Shown: in pieces, positions 3,637-60,053 of the stretch | Layout of the letters: each line of letters opens with the position of its first letter | Numbering within the stretch: the first letter of the stretch is position 1 | Assembly (NCBI GenBank): GCA_964601305.1 | Contig: CAZRMW010000001.1 | Span: 135,450-199,449, forward strand | From: an uncultured Candidatus Saccharibacteria bacterium | GTDB lineage: Bacteria > Patescibacteriota > Minisyncoccia > JAHISW01 > Tagabacteraceae | Direction of reading: 5' to 3' | Length of the DNA: 64,000 nt | Notes under the pieces: model-generated | Told to the model about the DNA's origin: nothing | The model's database searches: none | Seen by the model: the letters and a program-made list of their open reading frames with translations, nothing else | Program-made: the position numbers and the translations under genes

Positions 3637-3637
3637 T

Positions 3638-4534
3638 TTATTTTTTTACTGGAACAAATTCGCTCCAACCATAAAGCTCTGGGTATTCTTTCCATGGACC
3701 TTCGCAAACTTTAAAGTATTTACATTTTTTACAATTTGGCCCTTTTGTTTTTCCTTTTGACACTCTGTATTTTGAATAATCTTTCACTGCAAATCCAGCG
3801 TCGTATATGCTAGTTTCTGGAATAAAATTTTCAGCAATACAATTTTCGTAGCCCCCCATTAGACAATACGGTATAGCTTCTGTAGAGACAATTTTACCTG
3901 CCTTAATGCCTATATCCAAAGCTTTTTTCACAAAAGGCATTATTTCTGATTTTTTAGGAGTGATCCATTCTCTATTTTCCCAAGCCGTACCACCCAAATG
4001 AATAAAGGCAAATTGGAACTGATTTACCCCTAATTTGGTGAAAACCTTAGCCATTTTCACCAAATACCTATAATTTTTCGAGGTAATCACCGAATTTGTC
4101 AAAACATATTGCCCCAAATCCTTTAAGTTTTCTATACCCCGCAAAGTCTGTTTAAAGCTTCCTTTTGCTCCCGTTAAAAAATCATGTATCTCAGCTGTAT
4201 GGCCATGAAGAGAGGGGGAAAATTCTGTCGCCCCCGCATCAACAGCCCTCCTGCAAAAATCTTTATACGCAAACATCCTACCATTTGTCTGAATTTGAAT
4301 TTGTTTAAATCCAATATCTCTAGCTAAAGAAATAACTTTTAAAATATCTGGGTGCATACATGGCTCCCCTCCTGTAAAAACAACTTCTCTTTTTCCTTCA
4401 GCAAAAGATTCTTTTAGGGACTTTTCTATTTCTTTTATATCCTTGTTCGCGCGAAAATCTCGCTTCTTGCCCTGCACACAAAACAAGCAATAATTATTAC
4501 ACCCAAAACCTATTTTTATATCTACTCGTTCCAT
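3638..4534 (-). CDS. Radical SAM protein (same family)
   Basis: CNNYCLFC, FTGGEPCM, C-terminal CKKCKYFKVCEGPWKEY. Confidence 0.8.
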   Translation of the reverse strand: MERVDIKIGFGCNNYCLFCVQGKKRDFRANKDIKEIEKSLKESFAEGKREVVFTGGEPCMHPDILKVISLARDIGFKQIQIQTNGRMFAYKDFCRRAVDAGATEFSPSLHGHTAEIHDFLTGAKGSFKQTLRGIENLKDLGQYVLTNSVITSKNYRYLVKMAKVFTKLGVNQFQFAFIHLGGTAWENREWITPKKSEIMPFVKKALDIGIKAGKIVSTEAIPYCLMGGYENCIAENFIPETSIYDAGFAVKDYSKYRVSKGKTKGPNCKKCKYFKVCEGPWKEYPELYGWSEFVPVKK

Positions 4535-4535
4535 A

Positions 4536-5654
4536 TTAATTTTTAAAATATTTTTCTTCCCAAACCAAGTCCTGATGTTTTTTAAAAAATTCAGGATTTT
4601 CTAGCTTTTTATAATACTTATAGCACTGCACGTCTGGAACAAAAAGTTTGCCAGCATAACAGTATTTTACACAAGGCGCCCCACCAAAACAAAGGTCGAA
4701 ATTACTACATTTTTTACAAAAAATATGCGCATTGTTTAAATTTCTTAAATCTGCCAATTTTTCTGATCCGAAATAAACATCTTTCATTGTATCTTTCTTT
4801 ATATTTCCCAATTTTATAGGAAGCCTTCTGCAAGGATAAATATCCCCATTTGGCATAATCACCATTATTCTCCCCTCTATTATTCCACAATAATTTTTTA
4901 TGGATAGTTCGCCCATCTCAGAGTTAAATAGGCCACTTTCACATCCTGTGCTTATTCTGAGAGAACTTTTCTCTTTAATTAAACTTTTATTGGCTTCTAA
5001 AACCTGCCTATAAAAATTTTTAAGTTCTTTTGGTTCTAAAATGCTATTTTTAAGTTTTTTCCCTCTTCCCCAAGAAATAGGCCTCCTTACCCCCAATGTC
5101 GATACCCCCATACCACCTAGTCTTTTTGCTAGAGCAGGAACATCTTTTATATTTTCTTTTGTTAAGGTTAGCGAAACCACAGTTTTTATGTTTGCATCCA
5201 CCAACATTTCTATTGCTTTTAAAATTTTTTTAAAAGATCCTTTGCCTCTAATTTTATCGTTAGTTTTTTCTTCTCCCTCTAGGCTTACTTGACAAGCTAC
5301 AATATTATAATCCTTCAGCTTTTTTATATTTTTTTTTGTTAAAAGAGATCCGTTTGTAAGAAGTGCCCACTCAAATAAATCCACATTATCACCAAGACTC
5401 CTCGCAAAATTTAGAAAATCTTTTCTTATCATTGGCTCCCCTCCTGTAATATTTATCCTGGCAAATTTTTTGGACAACCCCCATTTCTTGATTAAAAAAA
5501 TGTACTGATTTAAAACCTTCGCAAGCTCCTTCCTAGACATTTCCTTTTTTATAAAATCTTTGTTTTGATAACAGTGCCCACACCTCCAGTTGCACCTTTC
5601 TGTAATGTGCCACTGCAAAGTAAAAGAAGTAGGTTTTAAAATTTTATTAGACAT
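4536..5654 (-). CDS. Radical SAM/SPASM-domain protein
   Basis: CNWRCGHC, ITGGEPMI, Cys-rich C-terminus (CGIIEG...CRRLP...CKKCSNFDLCFGG...C..C...C). Confidence 0.8.
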   Translation of the reverse strand: MSNKILKPTSFTLQWHITERCNWRCGHCYQNKDFIKKEMSRKELAKVLNQYIFLIKKWGLSKKFARINITGGEPMIRKDFLNFARSLGDNVDLFEWALLTNGSLLTKKNIKKLKDYNIVACQVSLEGEEKTNDKIRGKGSFKKILKAIEMLVDANIKTVVSLTLTKENIKDVPALAKRLGGMGVSTLGVRRPISWGRGKKLKNSILEPKELKNFYRQVLEANKSLIKEKSSLRISTGCESGLFNSEMGELSIKNYCGIIEGRIMVIMPNGDIYPCRRLPIKLGNIKKDTMKDVYFGSEKLADLRNLNNAHIFCKKCSNFDLCFGGAPCVKYCYAGKLFVPDVQCYKYYKKLENPEFFKKHQDLVWEEKYFKN

Positions 5655-7015
5655 TAAAGATTCTTTTTATTAGCTAGTGGATCTTTTTTGAAATAATCAC
5701 CATAAAACACCTTGGACGCTTGCCTACTTCCTCCTTTGCATTTAGAAACAAAAAAACATTTTTTGCATTCTTCTGGCAAATAATTTAAACTGCGGATTTT
5801 TTTTAGAAATTTATTTTTCCATACTTTTAGCACACTTGAAGTATCTCCTAAATTTTCATCGATAAAATAATGTGGTTTGTAAAACCCTCTCGGATCGACA
5901 ACAATTCTTGAATGTCCGTCGTCGGCAGTTGCGCCAACAGAAATACTACTCAATTTATTTGTATCTTTAATTGCACAAAAAGGAAGAGAGTTAGCTAAAG
6001 CAATAGGCATATCTAGTGTTTTTCTTATTTTAAAAATTTTTTCTACAAAAACTTTTACTAATTTAGAGTCTAAGATATTTTCTCCCGATATAGGAATTGG
6101 CCTATAAAACTCCCACTCATCAATGGGAAGTTTTTCAATAAAATCAGCCATATTTTCAAGATTTAAAATATTTTCTTTTGTAAGCACTGTGCCAACACGA
6201 ACAGTTTTTATTCCACTTTCTTTCAAAAATTTTATAGAGATTTCTTTCTTTTTTAAAACCCCTTTTCCTCCTGTAATTATATCCTCTTTTTGGGGTAAAT
6301 AATTTTCTATTGGGATTAAAATGTTGTCGACAAGTTTTGCTAAATTGTCTGCCATGGCTTTGTTTACCAAAATTCCATTTGTGTTTAGCCTTACTTCATC
6401 AAATCCCCTATTTTTTGCATACTTAAGAATTTTAAAAATATCTTTTCGTAAAAGAGGCTCCCCTCCAGTAAACCTGACTGTTTTTATTTTTGAACTATAG
6501 ACATCGTCTATAATTTTTTTTGTTTTCTCAAAACCCAACCGGGGAGACTTTTCTCTTCCACAAGAGGCAAAGGAAATTTTATTAAAACAAAAATTACACC
6601 TTAGATTACACTTTGGCTCTATTTCTATCATTACTTCTGTAGGTAAATCCAAAATAGGACTAAAGCCATTCTCCCTATAGTATTTCAAGTATCCCTTCGG
6701 GAATCCTCCACAAGATTTGTCCCACTTACATTTTTTGCAACTTTTCCCTTTATCTCCAGAAAAATTATCAAAAACGATATGGTCAAGAGAATTTGAAGAA
6801 ACCAAGCAATATGGAAAATTCTTTAAAATAATTTTTATCTTGCTTTCATATTTATTTAAAAGATTGTAAATAGATTCGAGAAGTTCTGGAAAAGACGGTA
6901 AATCAAGCAAGTTTTCTGCCAAAATAATTTCTAAGTTTTCTGATCTACTTTCAACAGCAATCTTCGCCAAAGAATCTATTGTTGAATAGTTTTGTTTGTC
7001 TATTTTATATTTCAT
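5654..7015 (-). CDS. Radical SAM protein with an extra N-terminal domain carrying the family CxxCx5CGG motif
   Basis: N-terminal CKKCKWDKSCGGFPKGY, central CNLRCNFC, FTGGEPLL, C-terminal CKKCFFVSKCKGG. Confidence 0.75.
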   Translation of the reverse strand: MKYKIDKQNYSTIDSLAKIAVESRSENLEIILAENLLDLPSFPELLESIYNLLNKYESKIKIILKNFPYCLVSSNSLDHIVFDNFSGDKGKSCKKCKWDKSCGGFPKGYLKYYRENGFSPILDLPTEVMIEIEPKCNLRCNFCFNKISFASCGREKSPRLGFEKTKKIIDDVYSSKIKTVRFTGGEPLLRKDIFKILKYAKNRGFDEVRLNTNGILVNKAMADNLAKLVDNILIPIENYLPQKEDIITGGKGVLKKKEISIKFLKESGIKTVRVGTVLTKENILNLENMADFIEKLPIDEWEFYRPIPISGENILDSKLVKVFVEKIFKIRKTLDMPIALANSLPFCAIKDTNKLSSISVGATADDGHSRIVVDPRGFYKPHYFIDENLGDTSSVLKVWKNKFLKKIRSLNYLPEECKKCFFVSKCKGGSRQASKVFYGDYFKKDPLANKKNL

Positions 7016-7653
7016 TTTCTCAAAACTCTAAAGTTTTCTTCATCAATAATTTCTACAACAGTAGAAGGTCTCTTTTTAGGCAACTCGCCAACATCCAAAA
7101 TTAATATATCTGAGGGAAAATTATTTTCCTCTCCAAATTGATTTAACAGCTCCTCTACGCTATAACACACCTCCCTACCAGATAAATTGGCGCTAGTTCC
7201 CACAAGTGGATTATTCAATTTAGAAAGTAGTTTTAAATAAAAAATATTTCTAGGAATTTGTATACCAATTGTTTTTAATCCAGGATTTAGACTAATAGGT
7301 ACGTTGTCTTTCCTTGGTACAATAAATGTAAATATTTTTTCTTGTTTTTTTTGAAGTATTCTTTCAACCAAAAAACTTGCCTTTCCATAAGTATTAAACT
7401 CTTCTACATTTTTGACTGTTATAAAAAAGGGCTTACTATAATCCCTGTTTTTAAACTGATAAATTTTTTTTATTGCATCTTCATTGTTCATATCGGCACC
7501 TATGCCATAGCAAGAATCTGTAGGATGCACAATAAGACCCCCTCTCTCTATCACCCCAATCGAAGCTTTTATTGCTTCATTTACTTCTTTCTCGTTTTCT
7601 TGATTTATTTTTAAAATTTCCATACTCATATCAAAGTGTAATGTTAGGCTCAA
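7012..7653 (-). CDS. YrdC/Sua5/TsaC-family (threonylcarbamoyl-AMP synthase-like) protein
   Basis: HPTDSCYGIGAD resembles the PTDTxYGLG signature. About 210 aa. Shares a 4-nt overlap with the downstream gene. Confidence 0.65.
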   Translation of the reverse strand: MSLTLHFDMSMEILKINQENEKEVNEAIKASIGVIERGGLIVHPTDSCYGIGADMNNEDAIKKIYQFKNRDYSKPFFITVKNVEEFNTYGKASFLVERILQKKQEKIFTFIVPRKDNVPISLNPGLKTIGIQIPRNIFYLKLLSKLNNPLVGTSANLSGREVCYSVEELLNQFGEENNFPSDILILDVGELPKKRPSTVVEIIDEENFRVLRK

Positions 7654-8668
7654 AATTTTTGAATTTTATTTTGTATTTATTTTGGTAATAGGCCAAGCAT
7701 CCAATCATTGCAGCATTATCTAACCTATATTCTTTTTTTGTTGGCTTTCTTAAAATAATTTCACCCCTTATTTTATTTTTGATTTTTTTGTACAAATCTT
7801 TGTTTTGAGAAAGTCCACCAACTAAATGAACCTCTTTTGCTTTCTTTTTTTTAGCTAGCAAAACTATTTTTTCAGAAAGTATTTCGTTTAATGATTCTTG
7901 AAAACTTGCTGCCACGTCTCTGGCAAAAGATCTGCTAATCCTTCCTGTTTTTCTTTTTTCTACCTCTATAAAAAGTTTAATTTGCTTTAAGAAATTAAAA
8001 AAGTTTAAATCTGTCAAATCTCCTTTGTAATACTTTTTGAAATTATATTTACAGGGATCCCCTTGCTCCATAATCTTTATAGCATTTTTAATTCCATCTA
8101 CATCGTCTCTGGAGGGCTTAACAACCCCTAAACTCTTTCCAACTGCCCTAAAAATTTTTCCAACACCTATAAAAGTTTTTATTCCGGCAATTTTTTTAGT
8201 TTCCACACTTCCACAAAGAGATTCGAAACTCTTTATATTTTTGATCAACGCAAAATCGCTATGGCTTCCAGAAGCAGAAAAAACTAATATTGGAAAATTA
8301 AAATCTTCTGGTTTTCTTTCGATCCACGAGGAATAATTGTGAGCCAAGATATGATCAACTTCCACGACGGGTTTTTTGTAAATCTTTCCCAACAACTTGG
8401 CAAACGATAATCCAACCAAAACGCAGTTATATATACCAGACTTTGAACTGACAGCAATAGCATCTATTTTATCCAAATTTATATTTTTATTATTTATATT
8501 TTTTAGCAAAAACTCTAAATGTTTTTTGGGGAGCAATTGAATAAACTCTCTCCAGCTCTTTGTTGGCAAATACCCTGAACCAGTTTTGTTAAACAAAACT
8601 TCTGTTCCATTTTCTACTATAGAAATTGCGGCACTAAAACCAGTTGTATCAATTGCTAAAATTCTCAT
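7631..8668 (-). CDS. Kae1/TsaD(Gcp)/HypF-type ASKHA-fold protein, divergent
   Basis: MRILAIDTTG start, HILAH (HxxxH metal motif), SASGSHSDF resembles SGGHT. About 345 aa. Immediately follows the YrdC-like gene. Confidence 0.55.
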   Translation of the reverse strand: MRILAIDTTGFSAAISIVENGTEVLFNKTGSGYLPTKSWREFIQLLPKKHLEFLLKNINNKNINLDKIDAIAVSSKSGIYNCVLVGLSFAKLLGKIYKKPVVEVDHILAHNYSSWIERKPEDFNFPILVFSASGSHSDFALIKNIKSFESLCGSVETKKIAGIKTFIGVGKIFRAVGKSLGVVKPSRDDVDGIKNAIKIMEQGDPCKYNFKKYYKGDLTDLNFFNFLKQIKLFIEVEKRKTGRISRSFARDVAASFQESLNEILSEKIVLLAKKKKAKEVHLVGGLSQNKDLYKKIKNKIRGEIILRKPTKKEYRLDNAAMIGCLAYYQNKYKIKFKNFEPNITL

Positions 8669-9822
8669 AACAATTCTTTAACTACTTTATTTCTCTTAAT
8701 TTTTCCTAAATTTAATTTTAAAAAACTTTTTTTCATTTTCTTTGTATTTTTTAAAGCACTTTTTACTTCTTTTTTAAAAATATTTTTTGAATCTTTGTCT
8801 ACAACTCTAGCCACACCAACATTTTTTAAAAATTTTGCTCGTTCATATTGTTCTTTGCTGTCTCTGTCTAGCGGAACTAACACTGATGGCACCCTCGCCT
8901 GCACTATTTCATTACAAACATTATAGCCCGCTGTAGATATTATTAAACTAGACAAAGTAAAAAGTTCGGGTAAGTTTTTTTCAAAAGATATTAATTTTAT
9001 TTTTAGTTTTCTTCTTTTAACTTCTTTTTTAAGTTTATCTAAATATTTAAAAGAAGGCCCCACACAAATAATCATTCTTGCTTTTGTTTCTTCTTTTTTT
9101 ATTTCTTCAAAAATTTCCACAGTTCGCTTCGCTACCCAAAAAGGAGACTTGCAATTAGCATTAACTATTTCTCCTCCACCCCCCAAAGAGACGGTAATTA
9201 AAAAATCATTATTTTTTATTTTATATTTTACTCTGCATTCACTTATATTTTTTTTAGAAATACTTTTTACTATACTCCCTGAAATAAAAAATTTTTTGTC
9301 TTTTTTAATATTTTTAAATTCTTTTTTAGATAAAATTCTAGCGACCTCTTCTTCACTATGTGGAATAATAATTTTATCAAACTCACTTAAAATTTCACTT
9401 CTTTTTTTTAAAACTAATTGATACTTTTCTTTGTCAGCTAATCTAAAGATTAACACCTTTTTTATATCACCAAACTCCGAGTCTAATATTTCAAAAGGGA
9501 AAGAAAACCCAAACAAAAAAACATCAACCACTATAGTATCTGGCTTGTGTTTGTAGATAGTTTTAATAAATTTTTCTCTATTTTTTTCCTTGGTTTTTAA
9601 AATACTTTTTCTTCCTTTTTTAATTAGACCATCTGAGGCAGGAGTAAGCCGTACAAAGGAAATATTGTTTTCTTTCAAAAAATGTGGTGATTTGCTTAAA
9701 GTGGCAAACAAAATATCTGTTTTTGGTTTTTCTTTTTTAACCAAATTAGCCAAAAGAATTGATCTTCTTAAGTGCCCTAAGCCAACACTATTTGAAGCAT
9801 AAAATAAAATTTTTTTATCCAT
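8665..9822 (-). CDS. GT-B fold glycosyltransferase-family protein (MurG/PseG/SpsG-like)
   Basis: N-terminal FYASNSVGLGHLRRSILLANLV matches the PseG/MurG G-x-G-H..R motif. C-terminal STAGYNVCNEIVQARVPSVLVP resembles the MurG C-terminal domain. Confidence 0.5.
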   Translation of the reverse strand: MDKKILFYASNSVGLGHLRRSILLANLVKKEKPKTDILFATLSKSPHFLKENNISFVRLTPASDGLIKKGRKSILKTKEKNREKFIKTIYKHKPDTIVVDVFLFGFSFPFEILDSEFGDIKKVLIFRLADKEKYQLVLKKRSEILSEFDKIIIPHSEEEVARILSKKEFKNIKKDKKFFISGSIVKSISKKNISECRVKYKIKNNDFLITVSLGGGGEIVNANCKSPFWVAKRTVEIFEEIKKEETKARMIICVGPSFKYLDKLKKEVKRRKLKIKLISFEKNLPELFTLSSLIISTAGYNVCNEIVQARVPSVLVPLDRDSKEQYERAKFLKNVGVARVVDKDSKNIFKKEVKSALKNTKKMKKSFLKLNLGKIKRNKVVKELL

Positions 9823-10726
9823 TTTTGTTTTTTAAAAACTTGGCAATACAAGGCCCCTCTATCAAACAATCTTTTTCTTCTGTTTTGTAAAGCAAGCTAT
9901 TAAAATATTTTTCAATCTCTCTGCAATTTTTAAAATCACCAAGTTTTTTTCTGTGCCAACTAGCCAGTGGGAGGCATCTAAAAACAGATAAATCTGTGCC
10001 TATATCAAACTTTCCGGAATTACCCTCGCAACCATATTTAATCCCTTTCTTATTGAAAACATCTTTAGATAGACCACAGCCCAAACCGACTCCTATGTTT
10101 TCTCTTTTAATTTTTTGGATTTCATTTATAAGTTTTTCTGAGTTTACAGAAAAATTCGGATTAGCCAGTCTTAAAACAATATTTTTTATACCAAATCTTT
10201 TGGCAATTTTTATTAAATAGTCTGATTCAAACTTATCGTCAAAAACGACCGCACCCACCAGAGTGTTTTTAAAAACAGAAATTTTTTCTAAATTTTTTAA
10301 AACCTGGTTCCATATTTTGGAAGAATATTTTTCTTTTGGATTTATATTAAAACTATATCTTATTCGAGAATCCTTACTTAACAAAAAATCTAAAATATTT
10401 TTATCAAAAATTCCGTTTGTAAAAATTTGCACAGAAAACCCTCTTTTTAAAGACGCTTCTACAATTTCTTTGAATTTAGGGTGCAAAGTTGGCTCTCCAC
10501 CCATTAGACGCACCTTTTTTTCTCTGCTCCCCCCCAAAAAATCCAAAACTTTTTCAAAATCAGAAAAAGACATTTCTTTGTTTTTTTTCTCCATTTCGCT
10601 TTTAGCAAAACAATAAGAACATTTTTGATTACATCTATTTGTCAGTAAAATATTAGCCATAGAATATAAGTTTATTCTATATAAAATAAACCAAATGAAA
10701 AAGGCATGCTGTACAAGACAACACAC
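9815..10726 (-). CDS. Radical SAM protein (start probably at MANILLTNRCN, position 10660)
   Basis: CNQKCSYC, LMGGEPTL, Cys-containing C-terminus. Confidence 0.75.
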   Translation of the reverse strand: MCCLVQHAFFIWFILYRINLYSMANILLTNRCNQKCSYCFAKSEMEKKNKEMSFSDFEKVLDFLGGSREKKVRLMGGEPTLHPKFKEIVEASLKRGFSVQIFTNGIFDKNILDFLLSKDSRIRYSFNINPKEKYSSKIWNQVLKNLEKISVFKNTLVGAVVFDDKFESDYLIKIAKRFGIKNIVLRLANPNFSVNSEKLINEIQKIKRENIGVGLGCGLSKDVFNKKGIKYGCEGNSGKFDIGTDLSVFRCLPLASWHRKKLGDFKNCREIEKYFNSLLYKTEEKDCLIEGPCIAKFLKNKNG

Positions 10727-10749
10727 CTTTAGCTTGAAAGACCCTTACC

Positions 10750-10965
10750 TTACCAACTGGTAATTTCGGTCTCATCGACACCGAAAAACATATCGGTGTC
10801 GATGGCTGACGGCAAGTTTGTCGAAAACCATTTCATGATTTCGGCATCATTTATGTTTATGCCGAAATACATGTCAGAATCGACGGCCGACATAGGCTCG
10901 GCAGCGATGGCCAGAGAAGCAACAAAACAAACAATAAGTGCGGCGATAAGCAGTGAACGGATCAT
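10750..10965 (-). CDS. Small secreted/signal-peptide protein with two internal repeats (DSDMYFGI.../DTDMFFGV...)
   Basis: 71 aa with a hydrophobic N-terminus (LLIAALIVCFVASLAIAA). Strong SD AAGGAG 7 nt before the ATG. TTGACA-N17-TAAACT promoter on the minus strand at about 11024-11052. GC about 46% against about 30% in the flanks. Confidence 0.5.
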   Translation of the reverse strand: MIRSLLIAALIVCFVASLAIAAEPMSAVDSDMYFGININDAEIMKWFSTNLPSAIDTDMFFGVDETEITSW

Positions 10966-11066
10966 GATGTCTCTCCTTTTTTTATCTGTTTTTTAAAATA
11001 TCACATCCCATAATCTATTCTGAAGTTTATCATAGCCTATTCTATCTGTCAAGACCCTGATACAAT

Positions 11067-12233
11067 TTAAAAACGATTTAGTTTTTCTATTCTTATTCCT
11101 TCTTTTTTCTTCAACACCCTTCTTCTATGTTGACGCCCAGTACATTCACCTGCAATTTTTCCAATTGCCACATCTTTTTTAAGACAATTCTGCTCTTGAC
11201 GCATATTTACCATACTTTGATCAAACCACAATTCTTTAAGTGATGTTTTTTTTACGTTTCCAGTCGGCAAATCTTCCCTCATCCAACAAGGAACAACATT
11301 CCCTTTTTCGTTAATAAACAATGACATTTTCTCCATTAAGCAAATGTCCCCATCCAAAAACGGAGCACCGATCCAACTCCAACCCTCTTTTTGAATCTTT
11401 TCCATTTTTTGATTAAATCCAAAAATTTGCTTTTCTGTAAGTTGTAATTTTTTAAAATTATCAATAGCCCTACCAGACCACTGTATCCTTTCTACACAAG
11501 GTTGTATATTATGACCAACACACCATTTGATGATATTAGGCACCTCTTTGTAATTCAAACTACAAAGTAAATTATTGTTTATTAATCTGGTTCTGCCCCA
11601 CTGATTGCTTTTATTAAAACCTGCCGACATCAAATTAAAAACACCTTTATACATTTTAGTTGCTGCGCCAGACACACCAACTAAATAGTCTTGTGTTTTA
11701 GAATCAAAAGAATTGATCTTAAATATAATCGAACAATCTAAGTCATATAGCCTATGGGCAATCTTAGGTGTAACTAAAATTGCATTTGTCAGCAATAAAC
11801 TACGAACACCTTGGCTTCTTGTGTATTCCATTAACTTCCAAATAAAAGGATATAACAATGGTTCGCCTCGTCCAGCAAAAATTACTTGTTTAACCCCCAA
11901 ATCAGCTGCCTGCTGAATTATGTTTTTATATTCTTCTTCCGATAATATTTGACTTTTGTTTTCTTTGCCACAGCTACCCAAACAATAAATACATTTCAAA
12001 TTACATTTTTTACCAAGAAACAACTGTAGTTTGTCGGGACGATAATCAGATTCAAAATCGACTAAACTATTTTTACAATACAATTTCCTAAAAACACCTC
12101 TTTGGTTTTTTGGTAAATTCCTGTTTGTGGAAGGCAAAATATCAAAAGCTGATTTTGTTGTTTTAATCATAAAATAAATTAATTTATAAAATCTATAAAA
12201 TACTCGTAAGAATACTCTTGCTTTCTTGGACAA
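11067..12233 (-). CDS. Radical SAM protein (start likely MIKTTK, position 12170)
   Basis: CNLKCIYCLGSC, FAGRGEPLL, Cys in the C-terminal part. Confidence 0.75.
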   Translation of the reverse strand: MSKKARVFLRVFYRFYKLIYFMIKTTKSAFDILPSTNRNLPKNQRGVFRKLYCKNSLVDFESDYRPDKLQLFLGKKCNLKCIYCLGSCGKENKSQILSEEEYKNIIQQAADLGVKQVIFAGRGEPLLYPFIWKLMEYTRSQGVRSLLLTNAILVTPKIAHRLYDLDCSIIFKINSFDSKTQDYLVGVSGAATKMYKGVFNLMSAGFNKSNQWGRTRLINNNLLCSLNYKEVPNIIKWCVGHNIQPCVERIQWSGRAIDNFKKLQLTEKQIFGFNQKMEKIQKEGWSWIGAPFLDGDICLMEKMSLFINEKGNVVPCWMREDLPTGNVKKTSLKELWFDQSMVNMRQEQNCLKKDVAIGKIAGECTGRQHRRRVLKKKEGIRIEKLNRF

Positions 12234-15283: not shown

Positions 15284-16135
15284 TCACTCCAAGCATCGTT
15301 TTTTCATTTTGTATACTGGATAAAATTCCGAATCTATATAGTCACCAGAGTTTATATTTTTATTTATATAAAAACTATCCAAAAACATTTTTTCTAATTC
15401 TTCTTTAGTATTCTGAACCCATGTTCTCTTCCCTCTCCATTTTTTTAAAATATTTTCTAAAACAACTTTTTCTCTTTTGCTTGTTGTTTTGTTATTTAAA
15501 TAGTTATAAATATCATTGGTAAATTTTTCTTTATTAATTTTTTTATTTTTCAGATTTGTGTTTTTATCAAACAAACGAGATGTTATAAGATCCTCGATCA
15601 ATTTACTTTTCAAAACAGAATATTTTTTAAAAGCGTTTTTTATTATATTTTCTGACTTAAAATTAATCATTTTTTTGTTAAAACAATGTATTCTCGTAAT
15701 AAAAATTCCTTCTTTGTTTAATAGTCTTGAGATTTTGTTTAAAAACTTGCTTTGGTATTTGGTCTCAATATTTCGCAAAACCAAATCTCCCAAAATAAAA
15801 TCAAAATAATTATCCTCAAAAAATTTATCTAAATTTAACCAATCAATTTTTATCCATTCTTCTTTGTTTTTGTTAATTTTGTATCCTAATTTAGTCATTT
15901 CTTCCATCATTTCTATAGAAAAATCTGCCACAGTAATTTTAGAACTATTTTTTGAAAAAATTTCTCTAATTTCTGGGGTAGCTCCCAACAATAATATTTT
16001 TTTATTACTATCTATACCAGAAAAATAATTTTTTATGTCCTTTTTAGAAGGTCTGAAAGGGAAAGTATATTTATTCCATAACAAAGAAGCATTTTCCCAA
16101 TTTGATTTTTTAAAATTACTCTTTTTTGTTTTCAT
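15284..16135 (-). CDS. Rossmann-fold SAM-dependent methyltransferase-like protein (paralog B)
   Basis: ILLLGATPEIREIF, FDFILGDLVLRNIETKYQSKFLNKISRLLNKEGIFI. Clearly homologous to 14528..15241. Confidence 0.4.
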   Translation of the reverse strand: MKTKKSNFKKSNWENASLLWNKYTFPFRPSKKDIKNYFSGIDSNKKILLLGATPEIREIFSKNSSKITVADFSIEMMEEMTKLGYKINKNKEEWIKIDWLNLDKFFEDNYFDFILGDLVLRNIETKYQSKFLNKISRLLNKEGIFITRIHCFNKKMINFKSENIIKNAFKKYSVLKSKLIEDLITSRLFDKNTNLKNKKINKEKFTNDIYNYLNNKTTSKREKVVLENILKKWRGKRTWVQNTKEELEKMFLDSFYINKNINSGDYIDSEFYPVYKMKKRCLE

Positions 16136-16197: not shown

Positions 16198-17109
16198 CTA
16201 CTCAATCTCACACAACAAACCTAAAAAAACACTTAAATGTTCCGTCTCGCAATAATCTCCCTTGATGTATTCTTCGTATTCTTTTATCCTTAAAATTTCG
16301 TCATTGCATACTATTTCTGAAGTTCCCATATTTTTACAAACTAGACGAGAAAAATCTTCACCTAAAGATCTATAGGCATAAGCAATTCTAATACCAGTCT
16401 GCACCTCTCTTATTTTTTTATTTTCTACCAAAGGCCCTATGCCCTCTATCGCTTTGAGTGCTTCACCTTCTTCTAGCCCGGAAAAACTCTTTGCAACGTC
16501 ACAAATATTATCACATTTCTTCGGAAATCCACTAGGAGTAGTGTCCAAAGAATTTAATCCATCCTCACATCTTTTTGTTAAAAGACTACAAGTATCTTCG
16601 TTTAAATCTTCTACTGTGGCTAAAACAAGTATAAGTTTATTAAAACCTTCTCTTTCTTCTAATTTTTCCAGATATGTTTTTTTTGATTCATCAGCAGTAT
16701 CTTCTTGATAATTTATATTTTCAATAAAATTTTTAGCTCTATTATAAAAATCTTCATCATTAGGATTTGCAAGAGATTTACATATTAAATATCTTCTAAG
16801 TTTACCGACAGCCAAAGACATTCTGTCTAATTCAAATGTAGTATTTCTAAAAACAATGTTGTTAACCTTAAAATCCAAGCTTTTGTCTGATTCTTTTAGA
16901 TTTGCTAATTTTTCTATCAACTCATCGTCTGATAAATTTTTAGATTCTTCTAAACATTTTGCTTTTACCGCTTCTGATGAAATATGGTGTTGGTCTCTAC
17001 TAAAAAACCAAAAAGCCACAGCTAATAAAATCAAAACAACTGCTGTAAATATTATTGAAAATTTTTTATTTTGTAGCATTTGAAAAATTAATAAGCCGGA
17101 CTCATACAC
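16198..17109 (-). CDS. Membrane-anchored Cys-rich hypothetical protein
   Basis: N-terminal TM segment (FSIIFTAVVLILLAVAFWFF) and many Cys residues. Probable start at M11, which removes the overlap with the precursor gene. Confidence 0.5.
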   Translation of the reverse strand: MYESGLLIFQMLQNKKFSIIFTAVVLILLAVAFWFFSRDQHHISSEAVKAKCLEESKNLSDDELIEKLANLKESDKSLDFKVNNIVFRNTTFELDRMSLAVGKLRRYLICKSLANPNDEDFYNRAKNFIENINYQEDTADESKKTYLEKLEEREGFNKLILVLATVEDLNEDTCSLLTKRCEDGLNSLDTTPSGFPKKCDNICDVAKSFSGLEEGEALKAIEGIGPLVENKKIREVQTGIRIAYAYRSLGEDFSRLVCKNMGTSEIVCNDEILRIKEYEEYIKGDYCETEHLSVFLGLLCEIE

Positions 17110-17570
17110 CCGCCACCACTACAACACGCAAAACAAACACAAGCATTTGAATGGTTTGCATGAGAACTATGTGAACCATGGCTACCGTGTGATCCATGAC
17201 TACCGTGACGGCCGTGACTACCGTGAGACCCATGCGATCCATGCGAACCATGAGATCCGTGACTACCATGCGATCCGTGACTACCATGCGATCCGTGACT
17301 GCCGTGAGAACCATGTGAGCCATGAGAACCGTGAGACCCATGCGAGCCATGCGAACCGTGAGACCCGTGGCTACCGTGTGATGCATGAGAACAATCAGCC
17401 GAACTTGTATTTGGCTTCATCGCCCCCGAAAGCACAACACCCAAAGACAGCACCCCCATAGCAATTTTGGCAGCACTTTTTTTATTTATTCTACCCTCTT
17501 CACTATTTAAAAAAGCTTTTATATCTTTTTTAATTTGAGGAAATTTTTCTTCCGATTTCTTTTTGGCCAT
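17088..17570 (-). CDS. His-Xaa-Ser repeat (HxsA-like) precursor-type protein: leader/TM-like N-terminus, 27 S-H-G-type triplets, Cys-rich tail CVCFACCSGGGC
   Basis: Translation MAKKKSEEKF...SSADC-SHA-(SHG)19-RHG-(SHG)3-SHS-SHA-NHS-NACVCFACCSGGGCMSPAY. A rSAM/SPASM gene sits directly upstream. Confidence 0.8.
   Translation of the reverse strand: MAKKKSEEKFPQIKKDIKAFLNSEEGRINKKSAAKIAMGVLSLGVVLSGAMKPNTSSADCSHASHGSHGSHGSHGSHGSHGSHGSHGSHGSHGSHGSHGSHGSHGSHGSHGSHGSHGSHGRHGSHGSHGSHGSHSSHANHSNACVCFACCSGGGCMSPAY
17148..17390 (-). repeat. 9-bp-periodic coding tandem repeat encoding Ser-His-Gly triplets
   Basis: catgNccgtgNNtaccgtg-type periodicity with varied codons (synonymous heterogeneity), so not a recent slippage array. 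Confidence 0.85.
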
Positions 17571-17591
17571 TAACTAAATTATAACAATTAT

Positions 17592-19022
17592 TTAATTTTT
17601 ATTAAACCAGTCTTCTAAAATTTTTCTAGACTCTTTATTTTTAAGTTTTTCAAACAAAAACTCTAGTGTTGCCATATTTATCTTACACCTTTCATTTGAA
17701 GACATTTGCCCAAAAATATTTCCCTGAACAAAATAATTGTATATAGGGCAAACCCCGCAATACGGCTTGTAGGCACAATCGCAACACCCGGGCAGACCAT
17801 CTAAGCACGACGCCATACACATAGTTCTAGATACAGGACTAGCTACTATTTCTTGGTAACTATCCTTGGAAACATTGCCAAGTCTAAAACTTTCATCGCC
17901 CATCATACTCATCATTCTGCCTTCATCGCACGTGTAAACATCGCCATTATAATTGTAAGCTAGCTGCCCTATACCTGCTCCGCACGGAGACCTAAAATCT
18001 AAATGGTTTGGGTCTTTGTGAGTTAAAATTTTTGCCAAAAAAGTAATAGCCATTTTTTCCCTGAAATCTACCCCTTTTTTGTTTAATTCTAAAATATAAT
18101 CAAAAGCGGCTTTGTAGAAATCCATATATTCATCGGTAGTATAGCCAATTTTTTCAAAATGATTTTTAGAAAAACCAAATGGATTAAGCGGTCTTAAATA
18201 AACATCGGAAAATCCAAGCTTAATAAATTCGTCTATCATTTTTTTATAATATGGCAAAGAGAATTTGCTTACGGTTACAGAAGGACTTAGTTTGTAAATA
18301 TAGCCTTTTTTCTTTAGCTGTGGATACATCTTATTAAACTTTTTCGCCCATTTAATCGCATGTTTGTAGCTGTTTTTATTTTTGCCACTTATTATTGGCC
18401 TGTTTTTATTGTGGACACCCTCTGGGCCGTCTAAAGAAATACAAAAACTCACTTTGTTGTCTATTAGATATTTAAACTTGTTTTCTGTCATCAAAGAAAA
18501 ATTAGAAACTAACCTTAGTTGCAAATCTTTATTAGCTTTTTTATTTTTTTCTTGCGCATACTCAATAATAAATTTTACTATAGACCAATTCACCAGTGGT
18601 TCTCCCCCCTGAAATTCTATTGCCACAAAATCACTTGTTGTTTCAAAAATTTTATCAACCACGCTTTTTGCAGTTTTTTTATCCATATCTAAATCCCCTC
18701 TATCTAAATCTTGGGCGCTTGCATGACAATATACACACTTATGATTGCATCTTAAAGTAACCACAACTATGTGCAAACTGGGTCCACCAAAAACAAAATC
18801 ATTTTTAGATTTATATTTTTCTATTACATAGCTTAAGTCTGCTTCATTTTTTAAGAAATTTTTGTCCTCTAGTTTTTTGTATAGTTTACTCCTCTTTTTT
18901 ACTTTTCCATCTTTAAAATCTTGAAAATCTTCTTTACCTAAAAACAAAAAATCACCAACATCGTTGGTTAAAAAATATTCATCTCCCACTAATTTAAAAC
19001 GAAAATGACTAGGTTTGCTCAT
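17592..19022 (-). CDS. Radical SAM/SPASM maturase (HxsB/HxsC-like, anSME-like)
   Basis: CNHKCVYCHA, FQGGEPLV, C-terminal SPASM cysteines (CGAGIGQ...C...CMASC...CCDCAYKPYCGVCP). Confidence 0.8.
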   Translation of the reverse strand: MSKPSHFRFKLVGDEYFLTNDVGDFLFLGKEDFQDFKDGKVKKRSKLYKKLEDKNFLKNEADLSYVIEKYKSKNDFVFGGPSLHIVVVTLRCNHKCVYCHASAQDLDRGDLDMDKKTAKSVVDKIFETTSDFVAIEFQGGEPLVNWSIVKFIIEYAQEKNKKANKDLQLRLVSNFSLMTENKFKYLIDNKVSFCISLDGPEGVHNKNRPIISGKNKNSYKHAIKWAKKFNKMYPQLKKKGYIYKLSPSVTVSKFSLPYYKKMIDEFIKLGFSDVYLRPLNPFGFSKNHFEKIGYTTDEYMDFYKAAFDYILELNKKGVDFREKMAITFLAKILTHKDPNHLDFRSPCGAGIGQLAYNYNGDVYTCDEGRMMSMMGDESFRLGNVSKDSYQEIVASPVSRTMCMASCLDGLPGCCDCAYKPYCGVCPIYNYFVQGNIFGQMSSNERCKINMATLEFLFEKLKNKESRKILEDWFNKN

Positions 19023-19025
19023 AAA

Positions 19026-19253
19026 TTAATTAAGCATTAAAGCTAAAACATAATTGCAAAATTCATCTTTTACCAGAGTAGCTTTAGATTTTTTTAGATT
19101 TTTTATTTTCACTGAAAAATAGTTCCCTTTTCTGCTAAAAACAAAATCTGCAAAACCACTAAAGTCTTTTATGGCCAATTTTATTGCTCCTAATTTATAT
19201 AACTTATTATGAAATTTTATTGTTTCCATATTTTTCTTCCCATGGCACGGCAA
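19026..19253 (-). CDS. Small hypothetical protein (75 aa)
   Basis: ORF within the operon. No motif. Confidence 0.3.
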   Translation of the reverse strand: MPCHGKKNMETIKFHNKLYKLGAIKLAIKDFSGFADFVFSRKGNYFSVKIKNLKKSKATLVKDEFCNYVLALMLN

Positions 19254-19629
19254 TGCCTAATGGATCATCCTCAGAGTTAAACGAATCATCAAAATCTTCT
19301 TCGCTTTCTCCCACAGCCGAAAACAAAGCTTGTCCCACTATAAACTCTCTTATTTTCTTATTGTTTTTAGAAAGTCTCGCTCTAGTTTCGCAACTTAATA
19401 ACTCGTTTAAAAATTCATCTTTCAAATTTTCTAATTGTTTTTTGGTAGAATTTTTTTTAGATTTTAAAGATACCAAAATTTTTTTTGGACTTTTGTTGTC
19501 AAAAAATATATAGGCTTTATCTAAAAACGCATAAGCTGCACCATAAAGAGCATCTACAGAATAATTTTGTAGATTAAAAACAAATTCTATCTTATCTTTT
19601 TCGATTTTTTCGCTATATTTTTTACTCAT
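19207..19629 (-). CDS. Hypothetical acidic-C-terminus protein; possible HxsD-like accessory protein (weak FLNELLSCE resemblance to the LLNDYxLRE motif)
   Basis: 140 aa ORF, first gene of the block. Confidence 0.35.
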   Translation of the reverse strand: MSKKYSEKIEKDKIEFVFNLQNYSVDALYGAAYAFLDKAYIFFDNKSPKKILVSLKSKKNSTKKQLENLKDEFLNELLSCETRARLSKNNKKIREFIVGQALFSAVGESEEDFDDSFNSEDDPLGIAVPWEEKYGNNKIS

Positions 19630-41653: not shown

Positions 41654-41682
41654 ATCTGTGCGACATCCGATGTCGCACAGAT
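41654..41682. repeat. REP-variant palindrome ATCTGTGCGACATCCGATGTCGCACAGAT, 3' of the RAYT gene
   Basis: Perfect 29-bp palindrome sharing the ATCTGTG...CACAGAT ends with the REP family. Confidence 0.65.
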
Positions 41683-42387: not shown

Positions 42388-42394
42388 TTTTTTA

Positions 42395-42421
42395 TCTGTG
42401 GGAAGTTCAACTTCCCACAGA
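42395..42421. repeat. REP palindrome TCTGTGGGAAGTTCAACTTCCCACAGA (between the RAYT start and rpsF)
   Basis: Perfect 11-bp arms. Confidence 0.75.
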
Positions 42422-42473
42422 TATATTGCATAATTTTGGAAAATTGGTAGTATATATCAGTAATACAAATATT

Positions 42474-59946: not shown

Positions 59947-60053
59947 AAACTGAACCATTTTCAAAGAACACCTCAATTATATCATTCTGTCAAATTTTGT
60001 CAAACTAAATTCAAGTTGCGCAAATCAAAAAAGCCTCACAATCGCAAGGCGTT

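What the first reader, a model, noticed from the sequence alone, without database searches (positions are those of the whole stretch)
10727..11066. GC-rich small secreted repeat peptide with its own consensus -35 promoter in the middle of the rSAM operon
The only sizeable gap in the operon (340 bp) holds a 71-aa ORF with a signal-peptide-like N-terminus. It has two internal repeats (DSDMYFGININDAEIMKWF / DTDMFFGVDETEITSW).

It has a strong SD and a TTGACA-N17-TAAACT promoter. Its GC is about 46% against about 30% in the flanks.

The CDS contains two strong DNA inverted repeats: CATCGACACCGA-N8-TCGGTGTCGATG and TTTCGGCAT-N11-ATGCCGAAA.

It could be a second substrate, an immunity/carrier peptide or a structured RNA element.
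Basis: seen in the sequence. Interest (0 to 1): 0.55.

Follow-up and report, generated by a model that had tools for sequence, protein, structure and literature searches.

The report
Orphan exported two-repeat peptide gene
The gap in this radical-SAM gene array holds a real but species-specific small gene for an exported, very acidic two-repeat peptide with its own expression signals and two unusually strong internal hairpins; whether the neighbouring enzymes modify it is open.

Summary

The ORF looks coding. The two repeats differ mostly at synonymous sites (pS 0.68, pN 0.24; about 0.9 in the other frames).

The hairpins are not a by-product of the peptide. Synonymous recoding almost never recreates them.

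The peptide has no homologue among about 15 billion proteins apart from near-clonal copies of the same organism. It matches no Pfam, NCBIfam, PADLOC, PHROG, PDB or Rfam family, and related CPR clusters lack it.

Its codon usage (GC3 0.53 against 0.27) and strong Shine-Dalgarno are atypical for this genome. Relatives carry other small exported genes with the same traits inside the homologous clusters.

The downstream radical-SAM enzyme has a RiPP-maturase-like fold. Its distant relatives sit directly behind signal-bearing aromatic repeat peptides, so a substrate role stays plausible (about 0.3).

Best reading (about 0.45): an independently expressed, lineage-specific exported peptide at a variable operon junction. 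Moderate interest.

The parts
11024..11052 (-). Sigma-70-like promoter: -35 TTGACA (11052-11047), 17-nt spacer ending in TG, -10 TAAACT (11029-11024)
   Evidence: Best site (10/12, TG-extended) in the 3-kb scan. One of only 8 sites in the window with a perfect TTGACA. Not significant on its own.
10973..10978 (-). Shine-Dalgarno AAGGAG, 7 nt before the ATG
   Evidence: None of the other roughly 20 genes of the array has a Shine-Dalgarno.
10750..10965 (-). CDS of the 71-aa pre-peptide, stop codon included
   Evidence: The same ORF was called in 10 or more metagenome contigs.
10903..10965 (-). Sec-type signal peptide, residues 1-21 (MIRSLLIAALIVCFVASLAIA), predicted cleavage AIA|AEP
   Evidence: Inspection of the sequence (-3/-1 rule). 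AlphaFold2 helix at residues 2-21. Hydrophobicity 3.29 over 12 residues. No dedicated signal-peptide predictor was run.
10825..10887 (-). Peptide repeat 1, residues 27-47 (AVDSDMYFGININDAEIMKWF)
10753..10806 (-). Peptide repeat 2, residues 54-71 (AIDTDMFFGVDETEITSW)
10773..10804 (.). Perfect 12-bp inverted repeat with an 8-nt loop, inside repeat 2 (codons IDTD-MFF-GVD)
   Evidence: I3.: -22.2 kcal/mol, z -6.9.
10834..10872 (.). Perfect 10-bp inverted repeat with an 11-nt loop, inside repeat 1 (codons YFGI...DAEI). Extends to 14 bp with one bulge.
   Evidence: I7.: -16.5 kcal/mol, z -4.7.
10764..10786 (.). 9/10 inverted repeat in repeat 2 at the position equivalent to the repeat-1 hairpin (FG codons pair with TE codons). 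Mutually exclusive with the 12-bp hairpin.
   Evidence: I8.: -10.1 kcal/mol, z -2.9.
10690..10730 (-). Terminator-like hairpin (13 pairs including G-U) followed by UUUUUCAUUU, 20 nt after the stop codon
   Evidence: -15.8 kcal/mol, z -2.0.
9815..10660 (-). Downstream radical-SAM gene (281 aa, true start ATG 10660). RiPP-maturase-like fold. Conserved core of the CPR cluster.
11067..12170 (-). Upstream radical-SAM/SPASM gene (367 aa)
   Evidence: Its relatives pair with a methyltransferase, not a peptide.

Best explanation
This is a genuine, independently expressed small protein-coding gene.

**Proposed mechanism**
1. Transcription starts at the gene's own sigma-70-like promoter, just after the stop codon of the upstream radical-SAM/SPASM gene. 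Read-through from upstream probably adds to it.
2. The only strong Shine-Dalgarno in the array drives translation of a 71-aa pre-peptide.
3. A classical Sec signal peptide (residues 1-21) directs export and is removed after A-I-A.
4. This releases a 50-aa, 5.65-kDa peptide with net charge about -9. It consists of two diverged copies of a roughly 20-residue unit: A-[VI]-D-[ST]-D-M-[YF]-F-G-[IV]...D-x-x-E-I-x-x-W.
5. A weak terminator-like hairpin after the stop codon lets some transcription continue into the downstream radical-SAM gene.

**Place in the genome**
- The gene is lineage-specific. It was probably acquired or assembled recently and sits at a variable junction of a conserved CPR gene cluster.
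- In relatives this junction, and other slots in the homologous clusters, hold other small exported proteins. This peptide is not a conserved component of the radical-SAM chemistry.
- The two perfect intragenic hairpins are a property of the nucleic acid, set by codon choice. The likeliest explanations are mRNA stabilisation or relics of palindromic, template-switch sequence evolution.

**Shown versus inferred**
- Shown: the ORF, its signals, the repeats, the coding-type divergence, the atypical codon usage, the orphan status and the hairpin statistics.
- Inferred: export, the cleavage site, expression level, independence from the radical-SAM enzymes and the role of the hairpins.
For: **Coding**
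- Between the two repeats pS is 0.68 and pN 0.24 (ratio 0.34) in the ORF frame, against 0.86 and 0.96 in the other two frames. Nine of 17 differences fall at third codon positions.

**Expression signals**
- Promoter and terminator-like hairpin.
- Shine-Dalgarno AAGGAG, in a genome where few genes and no other array gene have one.

**Signal peptide**
- Sequence inspection and an AlphaFold2 helix at residues 2-21.

**Orphan status**
- The word-indexed search found only a 99%-identical copy.
- Exhaustive HMMER found only a fragment of itself and a repeat-inflated chance hit.
- No family in Pfam, NCBIfam, PADLOC, PHROGs or PDB.
- Absent from plasmids and phages.
- All carrying contigs are at least 99.7% identical to the window.

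**Not conserved with the cluster**
- Relatives of the upstream radical-SAM/SPASM enzyme have no peptide.
- Orthologous CPR clusters lack it by tblastn. Their junction next to the 281-aa orthologue holds something else or nothing: L012, L096 (opposite strand), L013, L016, L014, L015, L097 and L098.

**Atypical composition**
- GC3 z is +4.3 and codon log-likelihood z is -4.9.

**Same gene class in relatives**
- Small, Shine-Dalgarno-led, signal-bearing genes with raised GC3 recur in relatives' clusters.
Against: - No expression data exist and there is no evolutionary depth. All copies are clonal, so selection on the gene cannot be measured beyond the 18-codon internal repeat comparison.
- The position (89 nt upstream of, and co-directional with, a radical-SAM enzyme of RiPP-maturase-like fold) and the 'signal-like N-terminus plus aromatic repeats' layout match what precedes distant relatives of that enzyme. 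This favours the substrate rival.
- The hairpins are left without a demonstrated role.
Confidence: 0.45

Rival explanations
1. The peptide is the client, a precursor or substrate, of a neighbouring radical-SAM enzyme, most likely the 281-aa enzyme directly downstream. It would be made in excess from its own promoter and Shine-Dalgarno. It would be modified in the cytoplasm on its repeat units (aromatic, Met or Asp-rich motifs) and then exported through its signal-like N-terminus. This parallels HxsA of the HXS system and the signal-bearing Tyr/Trp repeat peptides found next to homologous enzymes.
For: - The model of the 281-aa enzyme (pLDDT 78.7) is closest to the RiPP maturases TigE, SuiB, CteB, SkfB and PqqE (E about 1e-6, TM 0.56-0.68).
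- In Deltaproteobacteria, Bacteroidota, Acidobacteriota and Dehalobacter, homologues at 27-33% identity are directly preceded by repeat peptides (NY, SNY, ASW or YPIR repeats). These carry Sec/Tat-like N-termini or a helical acidic leader (L021, L023, L025, L027, L028, L030, L038).
- A precedent exists for a signal-bearing, radical-SAM-matured exported repeat effector: HxsA (PMC13128918).
- An Hxs-type system lies in the same array.
- A weak terminator after a small, strongly expressed gene is typical of RiPP structural genes (general knowledge).
Against: - The peptide has no sequence or motif similarity to those peptides: no period-3 x-N-Y repeats and no C-terminal Cys.
- Orthologous CPR clusters at 47-59% identity work without any such peptide.
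- Of the distant cassette, only the radical-SAM enzyme itself is shared with the CPR clusters.
- Neither flanking enzyme shows an RRE/PqqD domain hit.
- No peptidase or exporter gene lies in the array.
- The peptide's codon usage differs from that of the enzymes.
Confidence: 0.3
2. The ORF is not functional as a protein. The segment is a recently acquired or rearranged piece of DNA at an operon junction. Its only effect is regulatory: an internal promoter and a partial terminator for the downstream half of the array.
For: - The ORF is an orphan.
- Its codon usage is far from the host's.
- A 72-codon open frame in 45%-GC DNA is not rare by chance (own estimate: about 2% per frame).
- The junction is variable in relatives and holds opposite-strand genes in L012 and L096. 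It is therefore a transcription-unit boundary.
- The one SNP seen in the ORF is non-synonymous and hits the conserved Gly (G35D).
Against: - Divergence between the internal repeats is biased to synonymous sites in the ORF frame only.
- The spacing of Shine-Dalgarno and ATG is ideal, and a textbook signal peptide follows. These features are jointly unlikely in non-coding DNA.
- The same class of small exported, Shine-Dalgarno-led genes recurs in relatives.
Confidence: 0.12
3. The functional product is a structured RNA or an attenuator. The strong hairpins, including two mutually exclusive pairings at 10764-10804, would control transcription or stability of the message for the downstream radical-SAM gene, and the ORF would be incidental or a leader.
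For: - The putative transcript folds with z -3.7 against dinucleotide shuffles.
- The hairpins are far beyond chance and are not dictated by the peptide. Recoding at matched GC3 gave an inverted repeat of at least 12 bp in 0 of 600 trials and of at least 10 bp in 0.3%.
- The FG/xE hairpin recurs in both repeats with one compensatory pair, GGC:GCC against GGT:ACC.
Against: - No Rfam family matches, even at E up to 10.
- Overall fold energy is not lower than in synonymous recodings with the same GC3 (z -1.1 to -1.3).
- No U-tract follows the internal hairpins.
- A 71-codon ORF with a signal peptide is unlike known leader peptides.
- No relatives exist to test covariation.
Confidence: 0.06

Closest known systems
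HxsA, the exported effector of the HXS antiphage system, matured by the radical-SAM enzymes HxsB and HxsC (PMC13128918)
   Same: - Small protein with an N-terminal signal peptide and tandem repeats.
- Encoded in a radical-SAM-rich locus and exported.
- An HxsD/HxsB/HxsA4 set lies 6-9 kb away in the same array.
   Different: - No His-Xaa-Ser repeats and no peptidoglycan-binding domain.
- No match to any HxsA model.
- Strongly acidic (about -9), whereas the window's HxsA4 is basic (about +9).
Uncharacterised signal-bearing Tyr/Trp repeat peptides directly upstream of homologues of the 281-aa radical-SAM enzyme (L021, L023, L027, L028, L030, L038)
   Same: - Same position and strand relative to a homologous enzyme.
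- Signal-like N-terminus.
- Repeat-containing, aromatic-rich C-terminal part.
   Different: - Their repeats are period-3 (x-N-Y, S-N-Y, A-S-W) and several end in Cys-Lys or Cys-Arg. Here there are two roughly 20-residue acidic repeats and no Cys in the mature part.
- The enzymes share only 27-33% identity.
- The other cassette genes (a 289-aa protein and a roughly 700-aa DynA/DarE-like radical-SAM/SPASM enzyme) are absent here.
Radical-SAM/SPASM RiPP precursors with repeated aromatic cores (streptide SuiA/StrA; triceptide-type XyeA/GrrA)
   Same: - Short gene next to a radical-SAM enzyme whose fold matches SuiB, CteB and SkfB.
- Repeated motif containing Trp, Phe and Tyr.
   Different: - The N-terminus is a Sec-type signal rather than a leader.
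- No RRE domain was detected.
- No family model is matched.
- The peptide is not co-conserved with the enzyme.
DUF4440/SnoaL-like small lipoproteins of related CPR clusters
   Same: - Small, exported, Shine-Dalgarno-led genes with raised GC3.
- They occupy the same junction next to the 281-aa enzyme's orthologue in L012, L013, L016 and L096, and another slot of the cluster in L014.
   Different: - No sequence similarity.
- About 150 aa and globular, without repeats.
- Sometimes on the opposite strand.
Sec-exported signalling pro-peptides of Gram-positive bacteria (Phr, PapR, NprX type; recalled from general knowledge)
   Same: A 40-70-aa pre-peptide with a Sec signal, and a small mature peptide released outside the cell.
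   Different: No cognate receptor gene was recognised next to it, and there is no sequence similarity. This was tested only through family scans of the neighbours.

Membership tests
Sec-exported protein with an SPase I signal peptide | Positively charged n-region, hydrophobic h-region of 10-20 residues, small residues at -3 and -1 | tested here: met
   M-I-R, then 15 hydrophobic residues, then A-I-A|A-E-P. Hydrophobicity 3.29 over 12 residues. AlphaFold2 helix at residues 2-21. This is a heuristic; no SignalP-type predictor was available.
Sec-exported protein with an SPase I signal peptide | Demonstrated export and cleavage | not testable with these tools
   Needs PhoA or BlaM fusions, or N-terminal sequencing.
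Radical-SAM RiPP precursor peptide | Short gene adjacent to and co-directional with the maturase | tested here: met
   101 nt after the radical-SAM/SPASM gene and 89 nt before the 281-aa radical-SAM gene, on the same strand.
Radical-SAM RiPP precursor peptide | Co-conservation of precursor and maturase in related clusters | tested here: not met
   No relative of either flanking enzyme has this peptide nearby. No homologue exists anywhere.
Radical-SAM RiPP precursor peptide | Leader recognised by an RRE/PqqD-like domain in the maturase or a partner | tested here: not met
   Neither flanking enzyme gave a PqqD/RRE hit in the Pfam or NCBIfam scans. The 281-aa enzyme starts directly with the CxxxCxxC motif.
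Radical-SAM RiPP precursor peptide | Enzyme-dependent post-translational modification | not testable with these tools
   Needs co-expression and mass spectrometry.
HxsA (His-Xaa-Ser repeat effector) | His-Xaa-Ser repeats and a match to an HxsA model | tested here: not met
   The 71-aa ORF gave no NCBIfam hit. The neighbour at 17088-17570 scores 107 bits on HxsA4, above the cut-off of 55.
Signal-bearing aromatic repeat peptides upstream of homologues of the 281-aa radical-SAM enzyme (uncharacterised) | Directly upstream of the enzyme, same strand, signal-like N-terminus | tested here: met
Signal-bearing aromatic repeat peptides upstream of homologues of the 281-aa radical-SAM enzyme (uncharacterised) | Period-3 Tyr/Trp repeats, usually with a C-terminal Cys | tested here: not met
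   The mature part has two roughly 20-residue acidic repeats, one Tyr, two Trp and no Cys.
Known structured RNA family (Rfam) | Covariance-model match | tested here: not met
   The best hit is 21 bits against a gathering score of 163. The whole-window scan finds only tRNAs.
Haemolysin-type calcium-binding related domain (PF06594) | Pfam model match | tested here: not met
   The peptide matches no family even at E up to 10, while the matching segment of P0003 does hit PF06594. The P0003 hit is 27 bits per copy, inflated by four identical repeats.
Multi-copy mobile element (MITE or REP) | Further copies in the genome, terminal inverted repeats and a target duplication | tested here: not met
   No second copy in the 64-kb window. 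The flanking 8-mer direct repeats are at chance level for AT-rich DNA.
Type I toxin-antitoxin | Small hydrophobic toxin with an overlapping antisense RNA promoter | tested here: not met
   No plus-strand promoter-like site in 10600-11100. A 50-residue acidic tail is unlike these toxins.

The most novel reading that the evidence does not exclude
The peptide would be a new kind of radical-SAM client. It would be a Sec-signal-bearing, strongly acidic two-repeat precursor that the adjacent RiPP-maturase-like radical-SAM enzyme modifies before export. In this CPR bacterium it would replace the Tyr/Trp repeat peptides or small lipoproteins found at that position elsewhere. It might act outside the cell with, or against, the basic, exported HxsA4 effector of the Hxs-type system in the same array: net charge about -9 against about +9. 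The conserved FG/xE mRNA hairpins would then tune its translation or stability.
Probability: 0.25. Interest if true: 0.65.

Novelty: new member of a known kind. Interest (0 to 1): 0.4.

Why it matters
**If the best reading is right**
This is an ordinary case of a lineage-specific small secreted peptide lodged at a permissive operon junction. It is mainly useful as a warning that 'small ORF next to a radical-SAM enzyme' does not equal 'RiPP precursor'.

**What the follow-up uncovered beyond the finding**
- The 281-aa radical-SAM clade has a RiPP-maturase-like fold. In several phyla it sits directly behind uncharacterised, signal-bearing Tyr/Trp repeat peptides.
- CPR versions of the cluster repeatedly carry small exported genes with a Shine-Dalgarno and raised GC3, among enzyme genes that lack both.
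- The array contains an Hxs-type system. HXS was recently shown to be an antiphage defence and was reported almost only from Pseudomonadota (PMC13128918).

**If the peptide is a client of these enzymes**
It would extend radical-SAM maturation of exported repeat proteins to CPR bacteria, and it would give a small, testable substrate.

Tried and rejected
**1. Homology to RTX or HCBP-related repeat proteins.**
- The only non-self hit of the exhaustive search (P0003, E 2e-5) sums four identical repeats.
- One copy scores 27 bits, which is chance level at library scale, and the peptide does not hit PF06594.
- Rejected.

**2. A 42-residue ungapped similarity to flavocytochrome c fumarate reductase.**
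- The match to 1d4c has E 0.47 against the PDB sequences.
- Chance level; rejected.

**3. Fold inference for the peptide.**
- The AlphaFold2 single-sequence model has pLDDT 61 and shows only the signal helix and one short helix.
- No fold search was made on it.

**4. Metagenome scans for diverged copies.**
- A back-translated peptide scan and a two-repeat degenerate DNA pattern were both run.
- Both found nothing, not even the known JGI contigs, so that collection does not index them. The pattern does match the window itself.

**5. Plasmid and phage collections, PHROGs and PADLOC.**
- Nothing for the peptide.

**6. Mobile-element origin.**
- No second copy in the window.

**7. Remnant of the DUF4440-like lipoprotein found at the junction in relatives.**
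- No similarity.

**8. Hairpins shared by the analogous small genes of relatives.**
- None found.

**9. The antisense 66-aa ORF (10796-10996, plus strand).**
- No family hit, no Shine-Dalgarno and no promoter.

**10. Population variation as a test of selection.**
- All copies are clonal, with one SNP in the ORF. Uninformative.
Full report
**What is there**

Window 10661-11066 is the largest intergenic gap in a roughly 19-kb minus-strand gene array.
- It holds one ORF, 10750-10965 on the minus strand, of 71 aa.
Gene callers in all metagenome copies start that gene at ATG 10660, and so does the alignment of 18 homologues, where M1, N3 and T7 are invariant.
- The ORF therefore lies 101 nt after the stop of the upstream radical-SAM/SPASM gene (11067-12170). 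It lies 89 nt before the start of the downstream 281-aa radical-SAM gene (9815-10660).

**The observation**

All listed features are real.
- The N-terminus MIRSLLIAALIVCFVASLAIA|AEP has the layout of a Sec signal peptide: one basic residue, a 15-residue hydrophobic core and A-x-A. AlphaFold2 models residues 2-21 as a helix; the rest of the model is low-confidence, mean pLDDT 61.
- The predicted mature part is 50 aa and 5.65 kDa, with ten acidic residues, one basic residue, seven aromatic residues and no Cys. Net charge is about -9.
- It consists of two repeats, AVDSDMYFGI(NI)NDAEIMKW and AIDTDMFFGV--DETEITSW. Their BLOSUM62 score of 65 was reached by none of 20000 shuffles.
- AAGGAG lies 7 nt before the ATG.
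- TTGACA-17-TAAACT with a TG extension (11052..11024) is the best site in a 3-kb scan. Such matches are not enriched in this AT-rich window: 35 at 10/12 or better against 52 in shuffles. Its weight comes from position, not from the match.
- A terminator-like hairpin followed by a U-run lies 20 nt after the stop codon (10730..10700).
- GC is 0.454 in the ORF against 0.30 and 0.33 in the flanking genes.
- The two inverted repeats are perfect, 12/12 with loop 8 and 10/10 with loop 11. They fold at -22.2 and -16.5 kcal/mol, z -6.9 and -4.7.

**Coding or not**

No relatives exist for a comparative test, so I used the internal duplication as a two-sequence alignment.
- In the ORF frame the repeats differ with pS 0.68 and pN 0.24 (ratio 0.34). 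In the other two frames the ratios are 0.86 and 0.96.
- Nine of 17 differences are at third codon positions, and the replacements are conservative: V/I, S/T, Y/F, I/V, D/E.
- The sample is only 18 codons, but the pattern is what purifying selection on a protein gives.
- Together with the Shine-Dalgarno spacing and the signal peptide, I rate 'protein-coding' at about 0.8.

**The hairpins**

It does not.
- I kept the protein fixed and resampled synonymous codons at the ORF's own GC3. An inverted repeat of at least 12 bp arose in 0 of 600 recodings, and one of at least 10 bp in 0.3%.
- Merely permuting the ORF's own codons among identical residues gave 1.2% and 5.7%.
- The window has 19 perfect inverted repeats of at least 10 bp against 2.3 expected, and two of them are in this 216-nt ORF.
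- The repeat-1 hairpin pairs the Phe-Gly codons with the Ala-Glu codons. Repeat 2 has the same pairing (Phe-Gly with Thr-Glu, 9/10) with one compensatory change, GGC:GCC to GGT:ACC. It also has an alternative, mutually exclusive 12-bp stem.
- The overall fold energy of the ORF is unremarkable against synonymous recodings (z -1.1 to -1.3).
- The whole putative transcript is more stable than dinucleotide shuffles (z -3.7).
- No Rfam family matches.
- The analogous small genes of relatives have no such stems.
- The hairpins are therefore a real nucleic-acid feature of unknown role. I favour mRNA stabilisation or relics of palindrome-templated mutation, by inference only.

**Homologues**

- The word-indexed search of 5.8 billion clusters found only a 99%-identical copy.
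- The exhaustive HMMER search of 1.84 billion representatives found a 34-aa fragment of the same protein. It also found one RTX-like protein whose score sums four identical repeats. One copy gives 27 bits, which is chance level at that scale, and the peptide does not hit PF06594.
- Pfam, NCBIfam, PADLOC, PHROGs and PDB sequences gave nothing significant, nor did plasmids or phages.
- The exact protein occurs on ten or more contigs from several metagenomes. All are at least 99.7% identical to the window across up to 16 kb.
- The single SNP in the ORF is G35D, which also breaks the repeat-1 stem.

**Composition**

- GC3 is 0.53 against a mean of 0.27. Apart from ORF 59067-59834, no 72-codon stretch of any other gene in the window reaches it (z +4.3).
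- The codon log-likelihood under host usage has z -4.9. For example, ATC is used in 5 of 9 Ile codons against 8% in the host, and GCC in 6 of 9 Ala codons against 15%.
- Shine-Dalgarno sequences are rare in this genome, and none of the other roughly 20 array genes has one.

**Context**

The array runs, in transcription order:
1. HxsD, then HxsB (529 bits, cut-off 370), HxsA4 (107 bits, cut-off 55) and a membrane protein.
2. Two methyltransferases, a B12 radical-SAM enzyme and a 322-aa protein.
3. The 367-aa radical-SAM/SPASM enzyme, this ORF, and the 281-aa radical-SAM enzyme.
4. A GT28-like glycosyltransferase, a TsaD-like protein and a Sua5-like protein.
5. Two further radical-SAM genes, one with a SPASM domain.
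6. Three genes holding four HxsC4-like radical-SAM domains, all below cut-off.

HXS was recently shown to be an antiphage system whose signal-bearing HxsA effector is matured by radical-SAM enzymes and exported (PMC13128918).

*The upstream enzyme.* Its relatives, at 42-46% identity, pair with a methyltransferase in other genomes and never with a small peptide.

*The downstream 281-aa enzyme in CPR genomes.* It is the conserved one. Orthologues at 47-59% identity head similar CPR or Saccharibacteria-like clusters.
- None of these loci encodes the peptide.
- The junction next to the orthologue holds a DUF4440/SnoaL-like lipoprotein of about 150 aa in L012 and L096 (opposite strand), and in L013 and L016.
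- L013 additionally has a 126-aa two-repeat secreted protein there.
- L014 carries its DUF4440-like lipoprotein in another slot of the cluster, not next to the orthologue.
- The junction holds no small exported gene in L014, L015, L097 and L098.
- Those small exported genes share the odd traits of this ORF: a strong Shine-Dalgarno and GC3 of 0.38-0.52, among enzyme genes with no Shine-Dalgarno and GC3 of 0.15-0.33.
- The window's first 23 kb contains only one gene of that class, this ORF.

*The downstream enzyme outside CPR.*
- An AlphaFold2 model of the 281-aa enzyme (pLDDT 78.7) is closest to the RiPP maturases TigE, SuiB, CteB, SkfB and PqqE, at E about 1e-6.
- Its relatives at 27-33% identity in Deltaproteobacteria, Bacteroidota, Acidobacteriota and Dehalobacter are directly preceded by repeat peptides. 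Examples are ...NYANYADYTNYANQKYGNY... and ...YSNYDQYSNYGQYSNY....
- Most of those peptides have Sec/Tat-like N-termini.
- Of that cassette, only the radical-SAM enzyme is shared with the CPR clusters.

**Weighing**

*For a substrate role:*
- the position of the ORF;
- its signal-plus-repeat layout;
- the fold and family habit of the downstream enzyme;
- the HxsA precedent.

*Against a substrate role:*
- no motif is shared with those peptides;
- no co-conservation even among close orthologous clusters;
- no RRE domain, peptidase or exporter;
- the junction is a variable transcription-unit boundary in relatives.

My estimates are:

| Reading | Probability |
|---|---|
| Independent, lineage-specific exported peptide | 0.45 |
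| Radical-SAM client | 0.30 |
| Non-functional ORF with a regulatory side effect | 0.12 |
| RNA element | 0.06 |
| Other | remainder |

**Verdict**

- Novelty: a new, orphan member of a known kind, small Sec-exported peptides.
- Interest is moderate (0.4). It is raised mainly by the unexplained hairpins and by the open substrate question, which a simple co-expression and mass-spectrometry experiment would settle.

Noticed in passing
window 17088-19629 and 912-4534: An Hxs-type system sits in what looks like a CPR genome. It comprises HxsD (19207-19629), HxsB (17592-19022; 529 bits, cut-off 370) and HxsA4 (17088-17570; 107 bits, cut-off 55). Four HxsC4-like radical-SAM domains lie at the far end of the array, all below cut-off. 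HXS is an antiphage system reported to be 99.7% in Pseudomonadota (PMC13128918).
   Followed up: partly
window 17242-17277 (against L003): One strain has a 36-bp in-frame deletion in the Ser-His-Gly repeat of HxsA4, giving 148 aa instead of 160. This is repeat-number polymorphism in an otherwise clonal population.
   Followed up: no
L021, L023, L025, L027, L028, L030, L038 (about 5400-10000 in each locus): An uncharacterised cassette occurs in several phyla. Its gene order is a signal- or leader-bearing Tyr/Trp repeat peptide (NY, SNY, ASW or YPIR repeats, often ending Cys-Lys or Cys-Arg), then a homologue of the 281-aa radical-SAM enzyme. In L023 and L028, and in L022, L027 and L030, a 289-aa protein and a roughly 700-aa DynA/DarE-like radical-SAM/SPASM enzyme follow. 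No NCBIfam model matches the peptide or the 289-aa protein.
   Followed up: partly
L012 7419-7865, L013 1103-1591 / 6902-7282 / 15508-16110, L014 11543-12028, L016 5428-5883: In related CPR clusters the small exported proteins carry strong Shine-Dalgarno sequences and GC3 of 0.37-0.52. The surrounding enzyme genes have no Shine-Dalgarno and GC3 of 0.15-0.33. The cause is unexplained: expression class or mobility.
   Followed up: partly
window 59067-59834 (promoter at 60003): A second compositional outlier: a 255-aa ORF with GC 0.54 and GC3 0.63, Shine-Dalgarno AGGAGG and a perfect TTGACA-16-TATAAT promoter with a TG extension. It has no Pfam or PHROG hit and no Rfam hit in the region.
   Followed up: partly
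window 40972-40998, 42160-42186, 42393-42423 (and 41654-41682): A perfect hairpin with arm TCTGTGGGAAG(T) recurs three times within 1.5 kb, and a related one (ATCTGTGCGACAT) lies nearby. This looks like a REP-like palindromic element or shared terminators.
   Followed up: no
window 10661-10726: The mechanical ORF list starts the downstream radical-SAM gene at GTG 10726, which overlaps the terminator-like hairpin. The true start is almost certainly ATG 10660, by gene calls in all copies and the conserved MANILLTN N-terminus.
   Followed up: yes
window 10862 (against L001): The only SNP in the ORF among all copies changes Gly35 to Asp in the conserved Phe-Gly motif. It also turns a G-C pair of the repeat-1 hairpin into a mismatch.
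   Followed up: yes
P0002 (no locus): A 34-aa database entry, MIRSLLIAALIVCFVASLAIAAEPMSAVDSDMSA, matches residues 1-32 and then diverges. It may be a truncated contig end or a variant with a rearranged repeat. It could not be retrieved.
   Followed up: no
window 7012-8668: Adjacent Sua5/YrdC-like and TsaD/Kae1-like genes sit inside the cluster and are conserved in all CPR relatives; the TsaD-like one gives a weak HypF_C_2 hit. The pair recalls split TobZ/HypF-type carbamoyltransferases (inference from general knowledge), which suggests the cluster also makes a carbamoylated small molecule or glycan.
   Followed up: no
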